Source: Clavelina lepadiformis
Taxonomy: Eukaryota
NCBI RefSeq assembly: GCF_947623445.1
Contig: NC_135246.1
Location: forward strand, 18,900,288-18,964,287
Reading direction: 5' to 3'
Length of the DNA: 64,000 nt
Shown one piece after another: positions 28,201-59,823 of this stretch (position 1 is the first letter of the stretch; each line of letters opens with the position of its first letter). The translations under genes and the position numbers were made by a program. The notes beneath the pieces are model-generated. The model was not told the DNA's origin and did no database searches. It worked only from the letters and a program-made list of their open reading frames with translations.

Positions 28201-29567
28201 TTCATACACGTTATAGAGCTTGGATGATTACTTCTAGAATGTTACTAGAATAAATAAAGTATTCAATAAATAAACCGAATTCAGCAGTAGTTTCAAATGC
28301 AAAGCAACCCAAAAAATTGTTGTAATAGCTTTGAAATGACACGAAACATCTTAACTAAGCATTGACTACGACAGGCTTTACTTGCGTCACACCTATGAAA
28401 AGCTGTGCAGCATTTTAAGATTGTGAATAAATGTCTATAAACCCAACGCCTTCAAACAGTTTTGCTGTTTTACTTCACATTTAAGCAGTGCACGTTGTTC
28501 TACATTTACTGTAAGTTATTATGATGCCTTAAAGGTATTGTTTCTTACAATAAATAATACTTGATTGACAGTGCTGTCGGTTAAGTGTTGAAAAACAAGT
28601 ATTTATTGTTGCTTGTGTAAAATTACCAATTAATAATTAAAATTAATTCTATGTGGGATTGCATATGACTGGAGAATTGATCACAATTTGAATTAACAGC
28701 AAACTTTTAGCGAATAAATCAATTGTTTTTCACTTTTGTACCTTACAAATTGAATAATCAACCGATTATTTGAGACTAAGCGTGAGTTTATTCTAATAAA
28801 ATTCGATTCCCAGCAAATGCATATGATAGACAATAGATTACAACTAAGGATTAAGATTGCCGCAGCCCATACTGGTACTTATTTTAAACTTATACATATA
28901 TATATACTTTCATACATGAAAGCTGGTTTTTGATTTGGTGTATGTTTTTACATTAATATTTGTACCTCTGCCTGCACGAAGTCTCTTTGAAATCTGCCGT
29001 ACTTTCCGTTTTGGCTATACAAAGATATTTTATGTTGATGTATGGCTAAATAGATTGTGCTGTGCCATGGGCTGTATCTATGCTTGCTGTGGGCAGATCA
29101 TATCAATTGTTGCTTGGCTAGATATTGAAAATTATTTGAGCCCGGTACACGTTTTCTTTTCATGTGTTGTTGCCTCCTTTGAATGAACAGTTTAAGTTCA
29201 CTTATTGTCTGTCATTCTAAATATAGTCAAGTGGGGCAAAAAAATGCAAAATTGACAAACTTTTGATTTTCTCGCTAAAAAATGCGCCAAAAAGTCAAGT
29301 TTTACCCTCTATTGATCAATATTAATATTCCATTGATGTATCCAAAAAATTGGAGCATTATGTTTATTCTTTTTATTTTTATCGAATATTTTGTGTTGCT
29401 TTTTTTTCCCCAGTGTTTGGGGCAATAAAAACCATGCTCGGGGTAAAAAAAAACAATCAATTTTGACAGCAAATTTTGTTTATTAAAAGCAACACAAAGC
29501 AGAAGAAATAGCAATATATACAGATGAGGATGAAACTGTAACATCTTGTTCAAACAAACAAAAAAGT

Positions 29568-30338
29568 TTATGCATTATGAAGTCCATATTTGCTTAGGAA
29601 CACAAATTTTTCTTTCACTTCCTCTTCTTCGGCAAAACCAAAATATGATTTTGCACGTCCGACAGAAGTTAACACTGCGGTTGAAGGACCCCAAAAACAA
29701 TTTTCAACGGTGACTATATCTATGTCTTCCTTTGTTTGCCAGTCCCAATACACTGCATCTTCTGAAGTTGATTTCTTGTCCCAAAACTTAAATTCAGCTT
29801 GCTCAATTTTTCCATCAACCTCGTCTCTGAAGACCTTCAGAACTTTTCCCCAATAATATGTTTTTGGCTTCTCCCAAAACACTGCAAAGTACTTTCCAAC
29901 TTGCTTTTTGTTTATTTCCAATTTAAATGTTCTCTTTTCTTTCTTCTGTTCGTTTACACTTTCTTCAGTTACATCTCTTCTCTCTTCCTCTACATCTTCC
30001 ATTCTAACAACTGTGTCTTCTCTTGTTTTGTCATTCATTTCTTCAGATTCATCGTCAGACTCTTCTACCATCTCATCCTCTGTATCTACTCTCCTCATGT
30101 CTTCATCCATTTGTTTTTGAATTTCCCGCTCCATCCTTCTTTCTATTTCTTCCTCCTCCTCCAAGTCCAGTGAATTTATTTCTTCATCTTCGTCTGCGTT
30201 CCTTTTCCTTCTCCCAGCTTTTTTCTTTTTTGCAATTGTTCCATTTGCTTCAAAGTTTTCAACTTGCTCGTTAAATTCTTCATTTGTTAAAATGCTTCCA
30301 TTCATCTTCACTCTTTTTTCTTTTTTTCTTCTTGTCAT
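29568..30338 (-). CDS. Orphan single-exon ORF: highly acidic (E/D-rich) 256-aa protein with basic N-terminal patch
   Basis: ORF-track ORF. An in-frame TAA lies immediately 5' of the ATG. The composition has long E/D runs (EEEEEIERRMEREIQKQMDEDMRRVDTEDEMVEESDDESEE), a KKKKAGRRKRN basic (NLS-like) patch, and an aromatic-rich C-terminal block (KYFAVFWEKPKTYYWGKVLKVF...AVYWDWQTKEDIDIVTVENCFWGPS). I recognise no family. No introns are needed. Flanked by G/A homopolymer repeat clusters (see findings). Confidence 0.35.
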   Translation of the reverse strand: MTRRKKEKRVKMNGSILTNEEFNEQVENFEANGTIAKKKKAGRRKRNADEDEEINSLDLEEEEEIERRMEREIQKQMDEDMRRVDTEDEMVEESDDESEEMNDKTREDTVVRMEDVEEERRDVTEESVNEQKKEKRTFKLEINKKQVGKYFAVFWEKPKTYYWGKVLKVFRDEVDGKIEQAEFKFWDKKSTSEDAVYWDWQTKEDIDIVTVENCFWGPSTAVLTSVGRAKSYFGFAEEEEVKEKFVFLSKYGLHNA

Positions 30339-33300
30339 TTGTTTGTCGTCCCCTTGATTTTAACACACTTTCTATCGAAACCGATTCATCTTTTGACACA
30401 AGCCGTATTTCATACTTCATCCCTTCGGGAGCGTGAAGTTGCAACTCATTGATGATGTCCTTTGTTGTTCTGATCCGTGATTGTACTGTGGTGCTCGTCG
30501 ACGGTGTGGAAACAGCTTAAATGTTGCGGATTGATGAGGTGGATGGCATTTCTTCCACATTACTTGACCATTCAGTTTCCTGTGGACTGGTCTTTTCCAA
30601 AATTGGATTGCCTTCTTCATCTTTTGGAGAAACACAATGCTACCAGGACTGGTTAAACTACTACTGAACAGAGACTTCTGAAACTGGAAAATGCTTACAA
30701 GAAGGTTAAGCTTTTGAATAGCTATTTGGCAGGAGTTCAACAAAGTGGAATGGTACATAAATCAATTAACTACAAAGAACAACACAAAATGATTGGAGAG
30801 TAAAACTTAACGCTTAACTTCACTCGCTTAACTTAATTTCAAATGAATCATCAGTACATTAGGATTAATGTATTTACTAGTGATCAGGAAACTGAGACAA
30901 TGCAAGTAAAGCATTAAAGTGCTAGTTTAATTCCTTATAGCAACCAAAATCGTTTTAAAATGAAAGTTATTAAAGATGGGGTAAAAAAAAACAAGCACTG
31001 GGAAAATAAAAACAACTGTTTTTTTTTGCCCCAACACATTGTGTAGTTTTGGGGTAAAAAAAGACAACATAGAATAGAATGAAAGGTTAACAGCAATCAA
31101 AATTGAAGTACTGGAGTACAATCATACTAAAATATCATGTAGATACACATAAAAAGATTGTGATTTTTAACCATCGTTTTTGATCCACAAAAAGTTTAGT
31201 AAACAGCAAAAAAAGTTTTTTTGGACCGTTTTTGGGTCAATTTAGTGATTTGCATAGTTCCTGAAGAGTACTTACCTCTAGACCTGTATTGTATGTTAAA
31301 AAACTATGCAAATAAATGATGTTTCTAACCATGCAAAGCTTTTTCAAAAAAATCATTCTTAGGGGGAGTTGGGGGGGCTGTCCTTTTTTACCCCAAGTAC
31401 CCCTATGTTTTTTTTTGCCCCAACTGACTATAATGCAATACTTTGATTATTTTTTATCGTTTTTCTCTGTAGCACTTGTTAGTTTAGGTCCTTCAGAGTC
31501 TTTTGTTGATGTTTTTATTGTTACAAATATTGGGTGGTACAAAATGTGATGCAATGAGTAACAAATTGATAATAATAACAAACCAATCATAGACCACAAA
31601 ATGGTTAGGCGAATTCTTGGATCAACCTCCATGCAAGTTTGCTATTAGGTGATTGTGTTTTTGTTTGTTGTTATTTATTGAGTCAAATTGTTGTTAAATA
31701 TTTGGTACGAAAAAAGTGACTTGCACTCGAATCAATACAGTAAGTCAGAATGGGACAATGTTTGTGCTTTAGTTGCAAAAATTTGCTTTGTAAGTTGTTG
31801 TTTTCCAGCACTGGTGCTGTCATACCATCACGCGATGTTTGATTACTCTTCATTTGACTTGTGTAACTAAGTGACATCATTAATGACATTGTGACATCAT
31901 ATTCGACTACTTGGCCGAGTAACGAATTTAATTAGTTGGATCTGGCAAGTCCAAGTGCTTTTGATTTGCCTCAACCCTATTCTAAATGTATAGTTTGTTT
32001 TTTCTTTTAGGTTTTTCGCTTATTGTGATGTTAACATTTTAAAATACTTTTGGGTTCATGACAACTTGCTTGAAGTGATTGAGGTGGAAGAAGCCCTTCA
32101 ACTTTGTAGTTTACTACGGTAAGTGAAAACCTTATTGTGCTTGGTAGGATCTTACAATCTTTTTTAACGGTATTTCCAAAGTGGCTGCTTAACATTTGAA
32201 AAGGTTTTCAAATGCTGTCTTGATTGTCTTTTGTGCTTTGTCAATGTCCGTAATTATATAATCACATTTTCAACTTCTTACATAGCTTTTAAGATCTTGT
32301 GGATTCTTTAGTGCTTTTTTCCCCACTCCTGTCAGATTAAAGTATAATTGGATATTCTCAATCTGTTACCAAAAGTAGTTGTGTCCTTATTAACTTAACA
32401 ATCTGTTGCCTTCCACTGACTACTTACCTCATTCAAGTGGGAACATGAATAGTTTTTTGGAATTTGAAGTGTGTAAGTGTTCAAAGATTTCTCCATTTAA
32501 AATGGGTTGAGTGTTAATTTTGCCAGGCTAGTGTATGTTGTGTCATTTGCATCTGGCGATTGCTGTAGCGTTTAAATATTTCTGACTGACACTGTGAGAG
32601 AAGTTTGTCACAAGTAGCATCATGTGTGCAAATAATTTGTGTGAAAGAAATTTAGAGCACTGTGTCGATAATTCAAATATAATTCAATGATAAATCAATA
32701 ATAAGTTGATAAGTTGTAAAAGGCAAGTTATTGTGAGAGTGTTTCAAAAATACTTAAATGTATCTCTGCAGTTGCTCTGCTCAAACATGGCAAGTACTTA
32801 AATTTAGGGAATGAATACGTCCAAATATAAAGGCTAATGTTTGCCTTGCTGTTCATTTCAGTGGGTTCTTGAAATGAAAAGCAATATTAATAAGAGGACG
32901 TAAATTGTTCTGATAATGTGACGTTAAATAAATAATGTCAGATTTTTAATATTAATCAGATGATTTAAATGGTCTCGTGGGCTAATAAATTATTCGGCAC
33001 TGTCTCATGTGTGTAGGTCAATAAAAAGTTTTTCTTGTACTATATTTTTTTCATATGCTGTAGCATACATCTTTATTTGTATTGTTATCTGTGGCGGGTA
33101 TGTCTTTTGAAGCATATGATTTATTTCGGTGCAATGGAAACATTCACCGTGGGTGGTTAGTAAACTAAAAACATTTGATCTCAACATTCTCATTTTAACA
33201 GGATAGCTACTTGGGCAGAGCAGCTATAACTAAAGCTACGGTATCGAGTATTGGGCTATAGTTTGTGCAATATTTCACACATTGCTTATTCTTTGTTGCT

Positions 33301-56900: not shown

Positions 56901-59823
56901 AGTTTATTGTAACATGATATTGTTTGTTTATTTTTAATATTTACTTGATTTATATCGATCCTTTATCTGAAAGCTGCATAAAGCAGCTGTTTTTCAATTA
57001 TGGTGAACGATTTTAACTTATTTTGTACAATGCTGTTTCGTATGTGCTTTTGCTTTTATTTATCAATGGAATAAGTGATCGAATGATTTATAGCTATAGA
57101 AATTTTGGTCAGATTGTTGTAGTTATACAATAAGCATACAGGAATGTTTATTTAGCATTGTATTGAACTTGACATTTCTACTCTTTTAGAAGTAAAATAC
57201 AAGAAAATAAAACGTTTACTTCAAGAGTGAATTGACCACTATAGAAGTGACAGAAAACTTGAGAACTCCTGTTGTCTAGAGAGTAAATTTCCCTTTTTTT
57301 CGAGTAAAACTCCCATCCGTTCAAAAGAATAAAACGGAAACACTCTTTCGGAAGGAAGAGAGGTAAAAGAATAAAAAAGAACGGATTTTGTTTAGAGTGT
57401 AAGCAAGCCGTTAGCATATAGCCTACTTCACATGTTAGTTGGCAATCGATAAACAAAATTTTAATAAGAATAGCCACCTGACACTGTAAAATGAACAGTA
57501 ACATCTAACCATAAAAAAAACTGTTTCTTCACTTTTTATGTGCGACGCAATCACGCAATCACGCAATCACGCAATCACGCAACCACGCAAACACGCAACC
57601 ACGCAACCACGCAACCACGCAACCACGCAACCACGCAACCACGCAACCACGCAACCACGCAACCACGCAACCACGCAACCACGCAACCACGCAACCACAC
57701 AACCACGCAACCACGCAACCACGCAAACACGCAACCATTATTTGCATCATTCAGGTACGAATAAAATAACAGTTGGTTGTTGCAGGTTGCGATCATTCGC
57801 CTTTAAAAGCATTGCACGCTTACCTAGGCATTCCTCATAATTATGACGTGTTTGGCCACGCTTTTCCCTTCTGGCATTAACAATTTTAGTTTCAGGTTCT
57901 TTGTGACCAATCAGATCATTAACGTCTGTTGTCAAACCTCACCAAAAAAACGTCGACGTAACTAAAATCAAAAAGGAACAGTTTTAGCTCAAGCAAGAGC
58001 CTGAAAATAAGAACGTTTCATGTTCCTCTATTCTAGAACTGCTTCGATATACTTCTTTGAATATTTTAGACGTTCAGGTTTTAGATTGATTGATTTGATT
58101 GATTTCAGAATTCATTAGAAGAGCTTGTAGCAATGAGCTCAATGGACAATAACCGTAAGTATTATGGCAAATTACCAACTGAAAACAATGAACTTACATG
58201 AAAATTTAGTAACTTAATTGTCAGTTTATAGAACGACATGTTTATACAACTTATTGCTCTTTGCTTGGTATAATTTTGTTATAACTTAAGTTTACAATAG
58301 AGGGTCAGAGGTTTGAAAATGAACAAGAAGACGCGGTCATCACTGACCTTCGCACCTCACTTAACACTGAAAAAAAGAGATCAGAAGATCTTCTTGATAC
58401 TCTTGAAAGCGTACAGAAAAGCAACCTGGAGTTATTATGCGATATTGCGACTTTAGACCAAGACATGAGAAAGTGCAACGACAAGGACCAGCGCCAAATC
58501 GTTACATTGACGTAGGTGGATGAGATAGAAAAGATGGTGTTGATATTCAATATTTTGGTGATGTTGTTTCTGCCTACAACCAACTTCTTTGTCAGATCAA
58601 GCTTGGAGCTGGCGAAAAGAAATTTGGAATTTTCCAAACACGAAGTTAACGAGTTGGAAGATCAACACAGAAGAGAAGAATTAGAGGTGCAGCAACGAGG
58701 AGACATGTTGCATAGACAGATAGAACAACAACAGCAAAGTTTAACGGCAAGTAAAATTGTTAGGATGCCATTATTTCATCAGAAAATTGTGCGTTCGAAG
58801 CTGTTTTTCACAGCTTCTTAACCTAAGTTAAACGCAACCTAGCTCTAACATAACAAAATTTTTTTTACCCCGGTCTACATTTATCTCAATGTTACTTCAA
58901 TGAAATGTTAAATACCTGTAGCTAAAATAACCGTTTGTCCTTAACAATATACTGCTTAACCTACCCAACACGCTAAAATGGTCACTTTCAATTTGCAATC
59001 AAAATTGGAATCAATGAAATGCATTAAAGCGTTTCTTGGTCCCTTATTTAGAAAAATACGACCTTTAATTTAAATAAATTTAACTAACAAAGTCTCAATT
59101 AAAATTCAGGTGCTGAAAAACGATTTCCATATGAAAAGCTTTCAGAATCAGGAAATCCTCAGGACATTTAGAAAAGAAATTGCACTTCTGAATGACATGT
59201 GCGTGCATGCTTTGGTTACAAGTAAAGTTTTAGCTCACAGTACTGTACGTGTGAAATACTTTGTTGAAACATATTTCAAACGAACGCCCCTGTTTCGCTT
59301 TTTCGTGAACACATAAGTGACTACTTTTGAAACATTAGAAAATCATGCCTCCGTAATAAGTTCCTGTTCCAGTGAGTAACAACTTATAGAAAAAAACCAA
59401 CCTGATTGTGCATGGAATGTGTTCATTTGTAATGATAATTACTCAAGTTTGGGTTTGAAATGGTCGTTGCTTTATTACACTAAAAAAACTTTATTGTCCG
59501 CGAAATGCCAATTTTTCATCAATCAATGATTTCTATCTCTACTGCAGATGTGGGGAAATGCTAGATTATGAGAACACCGAGTCGAGTAGGTGTGAAGCGC
59601 TTCGTGCCGCGTTGGATTGTAAAACGACTTACAGCCCTCATAAAGTAGATGAAATGCAGAGCCTGCGGCACAAAATCAGCGAAATGCAAACAATCTTGGG
59701 TAAATATTGCTCACAAGTTATCAGATGTTTTCGTAATAAACCAAACGTTTATCAAGCTAGTTTATTACAAAGATAACAAATCTTGCAGAGAAGCTATTGT
59801 TATGTTCAAAAGAAGAAACTTGA
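53908..59823 (+). CDS. Unidentified multi-exon coiled-coil protein gene (partial or uncertain model)
   Basis: Candidate exons (+): 53908-53950 (MTEEQQPPTAKSLQ; first ATG after in-frame stops), 54116-54272, 54320-54491, 54602-54690, 55093-55244, then a break, then 58109-58154, 58301-58511, 58596-58746, 59110-59221, 59548-59699 (or 59561-59699), 59789-59823. Phases chain for exons 1-5 and again for 58109-59221. A phase mismatch between 55244 and 58109, and another between 59221 and 59548, implies missing micro-exon(s) or two separate genes. Products are K/E/Q-rich heptad-like, for example ELQNEKQKYQNLSSTLQREQECNGQLSTKLAALNQEM and SSLELAKRNLEFSKHEVNELEDQHRREELEVQQRGDMLHRQIEQQQQSLT. Confidence 0.4.
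57541..57745. repeat. 8-bp minisatellite (ACGCAAYC)n, about 25 copies
   Basis: cacgcaat appears 4 times, then cacgcaac about 20 times with a few cacgcaaa / cacacaac variants. It lies in an intron of the coiled-coil gene. The overlapping six-frame ORFs (57538..57840, 57540..57764, 57559..57750, 57575..57796) are repeat-driven artefacts. Confidence 0.9.

What the first reader, a model, noticed from the sequence alone, without database searches (positions are those of the whole stretch)
29340..31430. Orphan acidic-protein ORF embedded in clusters of GGGGTAAAAAAA / TTTTTTTGCCCCAAC motifs
The 256-aa intronless ORF (29568-30338, - strand) has extreme E/D content, a basic patch and no recognisable domain. 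Repeated G4-A(7-9) and T(7-9)-GCCCCAAC motifs lie at about 29436, 30965, 31016-31060 and 31385-31420, with more at 29400-29415. An intronless, compositionally odd ORF bracketed by a private repeat family is a typical signature of a transposon- or virus-derived insertion, or of a young or fast-evolving gene.
Basis: seen in the sequence. Interest (0 to 1): 0.55.

Follow-up and report, generated by a model that had tools for sequence, protein, structure and literature searches.

The report
Broken pogo-type transposon, not an orphan gene
The "orphan acidic protein" is the leftover tail of a transposase gene inside a 2.2-kb defective cut-and-paste (pogo/Passer-like) DNA transposon that has recently multiplied in the sea squirt Clavelina lepadiformis. 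The G4-A7 motifs are the transposon's own end and near-end repeats, so this is an ordinary element. One mildly new detail is an undescribed chromatin-reader-like domain at the end of the transposase.

Summary
The 256-aa ORF (29568-30338, minus strand) exists, and GGGGYAAAAAAA occurs 7 times in the 64-kb window against 0.03 expected, with 6 of the 7 inside 29233-31421.

The whole thing is one copy of a 2207-bp non-autonomous DNA transposon (29224-31430). It has roughly 23-bp terminal inverted repeats (TAGTCARKTGGGGCAAAAAAA) and TA target-site duplications. Four other Clavelina lepadiformis loci carry end-to-end copies at 96.6-98.9% identity in unrelated flanks, each bounded by TA.

The ORF is not an orphan gene. 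It is colinear with roughly the last 225 residues of ~750-aa DD35D pogo/Passer-like transposases (HTH, then DDE_1, then linker, then a C-terminal domain). The window copy has lost the DNA-binding and catalytic parts. It also carries an in-frame stop and a +1 frameshift, so its ATG is fortuitous.

The G4YA7-9 motif also sits at the contig ends of a relative whose transposase is only 31% identical, so it is probably the transposase-binding site.

Verdict: an ordinary young transposon with a modestly novel transposase architecture.

The parts
29222..29223 (.). TA target-site duplication (left)
   Evidence: All five genomic copies are flanked by TA on both sides, and the flanks are otherwise unrelated.
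29224..29246 (-). 3' terminal inverted repeat (TAGTCAAGTGGGGCAAAAAAATG). It contains one G4CA7 site.
   Evidence: Inverted repeat I3, 23 nt, 91% complementary to 31410-31432. Homology with L001, L002 and L004-L006 starts exactly here.
29399..29453 (.). 3' subterminal cluster of three G4(Y/A)A7-9 sites: one in sense orientation and two in antisense.
   Evidence: (I4, I12, I20, I21).
29568..30338 (-). The 256-aa ORF. It is the remnant of the 3' end of the transposase gene: basic patches, an acidic linker and the C-terminal domain.
   Evidence: It is colinear with residues ~530-755 of the 755-aa transposase P0087.
29571..29933 (-). Coding region of the conserved C-terminal beta-barrel domain (ORF aa 136-256). 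It is not in Pfam and has a BAH/chromo-barrel/PWWP/Tudor-like fold.
30346..30627 (-). Upstream continuation of the ancestral transposase reading frame, now out of frame with the ORF. It has an in-frame stop at 30517-30519 (NI*AVSTP) and includes the conserved ELQxxAPEGMxY and KSRGR(P) motifs.
   Evidence: Frame-3 translation. tblastn to P0087 aa 412-526. Comparison with P0002, P0003 and P0033.
30316..30335 (-). A-rich run carrying a +1 A insertion relative to the family consensus. The resulting frameshift creates the ORF's ATG (caaATGaca).
   Evidence: The window's only indel against the 5-copy consensus (alignment column 1236) is shared with L004. The consensus ORF reads ...RQTNDKKKKRKRVKMNG.
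30636..30936 (.). 301-bp internal segment with no protein homology. It is present in all 2.2-kb copies but is replaced in L001 by 391 bp that encode the DDE_1 C-terminal half. It marks the internal-deletion junction.
   Evidence: blastn coordinates. No Pfam hit. No tblastn hit.
30978..31063 (.). 5' inner subterminal cluster of four G4YA7-9-type sites in both orientations, including a 17-nt near-perfect palindromic pair.
   Evidence: (I22, I10, I13).
31382..31394 (-). Second outer motif site (GGGGTAAAAAAGG), 27 bp inside the 5' terminal site.
   Evidence: (D3).
31408..31430 (-). 5' terminal inverted repeat (TAGTCAGTTGGGGCAAAAAAAAACA).
   Evidence: (I3).
31431..31432 (.). TA target-site duplication (right)

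Best explanation
Window 29224-31430 is one copy of a young, internally deleted (non-autonomous) cut-and-paste DNA transposon of the pogo superfamily. It is closest to the DD35D 'Passer' type, and the host genome is Clavelina lepadiformis.

Shown:
- The element is 2207 bp long, with ~23-bp imperfect terminal inverted repeats.
- It is inserted at a TA that was duplicated.
- The same deletion derivative sits at other loci and differs by only 0.7-1.4% from the family consensus.
- The 256-aa ORF is what remains of the transposase gene's last third: basic/NLS-like patches, an acidic linker and a C-terminal beta-barrel domain.
- The DNA-binding HTH region and the DDE_1 catalytic core are deleted.
- The remaining frame is broken by a stop (30517-19) and a +1 frameshift in an A-run, which accidentally supplies the ATG.

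Inferred:
- The copy cannot move by itself. It is (or recently was) mobilised in trans by a full-length ~750-aa transposase of the same family.
- That transposase recognises the G4YA7-9 sequence, which is present once in each terminal repeat and about 7 more times in subterminal clusters. It then excises the element and reinserts it at TA.
- In the intact transposase, the C-terminal BAH/Tudor/PWWP-like domain most likely tethers the enzyme to chromatin (nucleosome or histone-mark reading). It has no role in this dead copy.
For: Copies and ends:
- Five genomic copies share identical ends TA|TAGTCAGTTGGGGC...GCCCCACTTGACTA|TA in unrelated flanks.
- The terminal inverted repeat is 23 nt, 91% complementary.

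Multicopy status:
- There are 12 Clavelina protein clusters (73-98% id to the ORF, on multi-Mb contigs; P0003 from a short Logan contig), and members of three of them sit on many contigs.

Link to transposases:
- The sibling deletion derivative L001 continues upstream into a DDE_1 domain (Pfam 1.2e-10). A further 42 of 43 hits to that region are PF03184.
- DD35D spacing is present in L001 and in 8 relatives.
- P0003 is colinear with aa 368-743 of the full-length 755-aa transposase P0087 (E 1e-56).
- The window keeps only the equivalents of P0087 aa 412-526 and 628-725, and there is no DBD or DDE anywhere in the 64 kb.

ORF state:
- Pooled dN/dS against the consensus is ~0.58, not significantly below 1 (p=0.07), with 2 stops and several frameshifts among 5 copies.

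C-terminal domain:
- It lies at the extreme C-terminus of the 10 long proteins tested, and 9 of those 10 have DDE_1.

Motif:
- Enrichment in the element.
- The same GGGGTAAAAAA occurs 3 times in L008, a relative whose transposase is 31% identical. All three lie within 70 bp of the contig ends.
- L007 has a variant G5A3TAG repeat four times in its 5' subterminal region.

Published pogo/Passer features match: TA TSD, TIR <=40 bp, and DD35D for Passer (PMC7386202, PMC9976928).
Against: - No full-length autonomous copy of this family was recovered from Clavelina. The best DDE_1 hit in the protein database is only 60% identical, so trans-mobilisation by a resident transposase is inferred and not shown.
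- No empty (pre-insertion) site was examined.
- Binding of the motif by the transposase is inferred from position and cross-species conservation only.
- The N-terminal HTH assignment in relatives is below Pfam's cut-off (HTH_Tnp_Tc5 20.7-21.1 bits against a cut-off of 22.2).
Confidence: 0.92

Rival explanations
1. The ORF on the non-autonomous element is itself functional. The element would express a truncated protein with no DBD and no catalytic domain (linker plus reader-like domain), starting at MKYEIRL in the consensus or MTRRK in the window subfamily. This protein would modulate transposition or chromatin, in the manner of truncated repressor forms of other transposases.
For: - The consensus of the 2.2-kb copies keeps a 315-codon open frame.
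- The C-terminal domain is open in most copies, and many were called as genes in the public annotation.
- dN/dS against the consensus is 0.58, nominally below 1.
- A deletion derivative from another organism (L003) independently keeps the C-terminal domain while losing DDE.
Against: - dN/dS is not significantly below 1 (p=0.07), and some substitutions are shared between copies and were counted repeatedly.
- At ~1% divergence a 0.8-kb frame stays open by chance.
- Among 5 copies there are 2 premature stops and frameshifts in 4.
- The frameshifted subfamily (window, L004, P0209) kept amplifying, so the upstream part of the frame is dispensable.
- There are no expression data.
Confidence: 0.1
2. 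It is a genuine host gene: a lineage-specific, young or fast-evolving acidic nuclear protein that merely lies among low-complexity A/T runs.
For: - The ORF is intact for 256 aa, with an ATG and a stop.
- There is no Pfam domain.
- It is annotated as 'unnamed protein product' in the public Clavelina proteome.
Against: - It is multicopy, with common TIRs and TA duplications.
- The reading frame continues upstream into transposase sequence once one stop and one frameshift are removed.
- It is colinear with full-length DDE_1 transposases.
- The public gene models bridge the defects with invented introns or fuse neighbouring host exons (P0001, P0004, P0006).
Confidence: 0.02
3. The region is a virus-derived insertion (an endogenous viral element), with the repeats as viral termini.
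Against: - There is no significant structural match to viral proteins (best E 3.5e-3, TM 0.31).
- All relatives with context are pogo-type transposases.
- The TA duplication and short TIRs are the Tc1/mariner/pogo signature.
Confidence: 0.01
4. The G4-A7 motifs are ordinary homopolymer noise of an AT-rich genome with no function.
For: The genome is 32-43% GC with many A/T runs. One exact copy occurs elsewhere in the window.
Against: - 7 observed against 0.03 expected, with 0 of 100 shuffles reaching 7.
- 9 sites in 2.2 kb against 3 in 61.8 kb.
- The sites are confined to the two ends, in inverted arrangement, and two of them lie inside the TIRs.
- The same motif sits at the contig ends of a 31%-identical relative.
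Confidence: 0.03

Closest known systems
Passer (PS) family of the pogo superfamily (IS630-Tc1-mariner group), as defined in PMC7386202 and characterised in PMC9976928
   Same: - TA target-site duplication.
- Short (<30 bp) terminal inverted repeats.
- A single intronless transposase ORF.
- A DDE_1 catalytic domain with exactly 35 residues between the 2nd and 3rd catalytic D.
- Animal hosts and young, high-identity copies.
   Different: - Described Passer transposases are 400-500 aa. Full-length relatives here are 740-800 aa, with a ~350-aa extension after DDE_1 that ends in a conserved beta-barrel domain.
- There are extra subterminal copies of the TIR core motif.
- No phylogeny against reference Passer, Tigger or pogoR sequences was made, so the family assignment rests on DD35D and general similarity.
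- The window copy itself lacks the transposase core.
Internally deleted non-autonomous DNA transposons (deletion derivatives such as Ds of Ac, or defective P and mariner copies)
   Same: - Both ends are retained and the interior is lost.
- The copy has the same termini as longer relatives (L001).
- One particular deletion form has amplified to many near-identical copies.
   Different: At 2.2 kb it is larger than a typical MITE, and it still carries 1 kb of transposase coding sequence. The autonomous partner was not found.
Transposable elements that carry chromatin-reader domains. Examples are chromoviruses (Ty3/gypsy integrase with a chromodomain, such as MAGGY), and the Chromo/PHD fusions with DNA transposons surveyed in bioRxiv 10.1101/2021.11.30.470311.
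   Same: A small beta-barrel of the Royal/BAH structural class is fused to the C-terminus of the element's recombinase. The plausible role is tethering integration to a chromatin state.
   Different: - The domain here matches no Pfam reader family.
- Ligand binding is untested.
- I found no report of such a fusion in pogo-type transposases in the papers searched.
IR/DR-type Tc1 elements (Sleeping Beauty-like), which have two transposase-binding sites per end (from general knowledge)
   Same: The TIR core sequence is repeated further inside each end, about 200 bp in at the 3' end and 370-450 bp in at the 5' end. The inner clusters are inverted relative to each other.
   Different: - There are no long continuous inverted repeats.
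- Sites occur in both orientations and in clusters of 3-4.
- The spacing at the two ends is asymmetric.
- Binding has not been shown.

Membership tests
pogo superfamily DNA transposon | TA target-site duplication | tested here: met
   TA on both sides of all five genomic copies, with flanks otherwise unrelated. No empty site was examined.
pogo superfamily DNA transposon | Terminal inverted repeats (type 1, <=40 bp; PMC7386202) | tested here: met
   23 nt, 91% complementary, lying exactly at the limits of inter-copy homology.
pogo superfamily DNA transposon | Transposase with a DDE_1 (PF03184) catalytic domain | tested here: met
   It is absent from the window copy through deletion. It is present in the sibling copy L001 (97% identical DNA; DDE_1 E=1.2e-10, above Pfam's cut-off). 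It is also present in 9 of 10 long proteins that share the C-terminal domain.
pogo superfamily DNA transposon | [quoted passage not shown] | tested here: inconclusive
   It is not present in the window. In the relatives P0087 and L003, HTH_Tnp_Tc5 scores 21.1 and 20.7 bits, just under the 22.2 cut-off.
Passer family | DD35D catalytic spacing | tested here: met
   35 residues in the L001 fragment and in P0087, P0106, P0124, P0178, P0164, P0086, P0025, P0018 and P0068. According to PMC7386202, Fot elements also have this spacing and Tigger spans 29-36, so the feature is not exclusive.
Passer family | Transposase of about 400-500 aa with DBD, NLS and DDE only (PMC9976928) | tested here: not met
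   Full-length relatives are 740-803 aa, with a long C-terminal extension and an extra domain.
Passer family | Phylogenetic placement of the DDE domain within the Passer clade | not tested
Non-autonomous deletion derivative | Shares termini with a longer coding element and lacks a functional transposase | tested here: met
   It shares its 3' end and 5' subterminal region with L001, which retains half of DDE_1. The window lacks DBD and DDE and has a stop plus a frameshift. A complete autonomous copy was not found.
Royal-family / BAH chromatin readers (Tudor, chromo-barrel, PWWP, BAH) | Sequence membership in a curated family model | tested here: not met
   No Pfam hit for the window domain. Of 54 family members, 1 gives a weak PWWP hit at E=0.009. 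The profile search against PDB sequences finds nothing.
Royal-family / BAH chromatin readers (Tudor, chromo-barrel, PWWP, BAH) | SH3-like beta-barrel fold superposable on known readers | tested here: inconclusive
Royal-family / BAH chromatin readers (Tudor, chromo-barrel, PWWP, BAH) | Aromatic cage, or binding to a nucleosome or histone peptide | not testable with these tools
   Conserved aromatics exist (YFAV, YYWGK, F..FL, W.WP).

The most novel reading that the evidence does not exclude
A widespread but undescribed clade of DD35D pogo-type transposases (~750 aa) has acquired a C-terminal domain of the BAH/PWWP/Tudor structural class. In this reading the domain reads a histone mark or the nucleosome surface and steers integration. 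It works together with a conserved AT-hook-like KSRGRP motif and a conserved G4YA7-9 end-binding site. Deletion derivatives such as the one in this window, and independently L003, preferentially retain this domain because the truncated product regulates transposition.
Probability: 0.15. Interest if true: 0.6.

Novelty: new variant of a known kind. Interest (0 to 1): 0.3.

Why it matters
For genome annotation, about two dozen 'unnamed protein product' genes of Clavelina lepadiformis are pieces of one defective transposon family. Some are fused to host exons in the gene models. They should be masked and not counted as orphan genes.

For transposon biology, the family points to a long-transposase branch of DD35D pogo elements with three features. 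It has a previously unnamed, confidently folded C-terminal domain that resembles chromatin readers. It has a conserved G4YA7-9 end motif shared across distant relatives. Its copies are very young (about 1% diverged), which suggests recent activity in a chordate.

If the domain does tether the transposase to chromatin, this would be a further case of a DNA transposon capturing a reader module. It would also be a possible handle for targeted integration tools, since Passer relatives are already used as vectors.

Tried and rejected
- **Pfam on the ORF and on all three sense frames of the element.** It found nothing in the window. The link to transposases came only from longer paralogues (P0003/L001).
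- **Search for a full-length Clavelina transposase** using the DDE fragment. The best hit was 60% identical and there was no autonomous copy.
- **PDB sequence search with the domain profile.** No hit.
- **Foldseek against AFDB50.** The library was unavailable.
- **Rfam on 28500-32500.** No RNA family.
- **Inverted repeats in L003.** None were found, so the contig probably lacks the element ends.
- **Organism names for the full-length relatives.** None are on record; they come from Logan, ENA and JGI contigs of 2.6-5.9 kb.
- **The 34-nt inverted match between 28705-28738 and the element's 29247-29280.** I considered it as a sign of a second nested end. No TIR follows it, so I treated it as chance or an old fragment.
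- **dN/dS among copies.** There were too few substitutions (48) to be decisive.
- **The isolated motif at 58860.** It is not part of any element copy.

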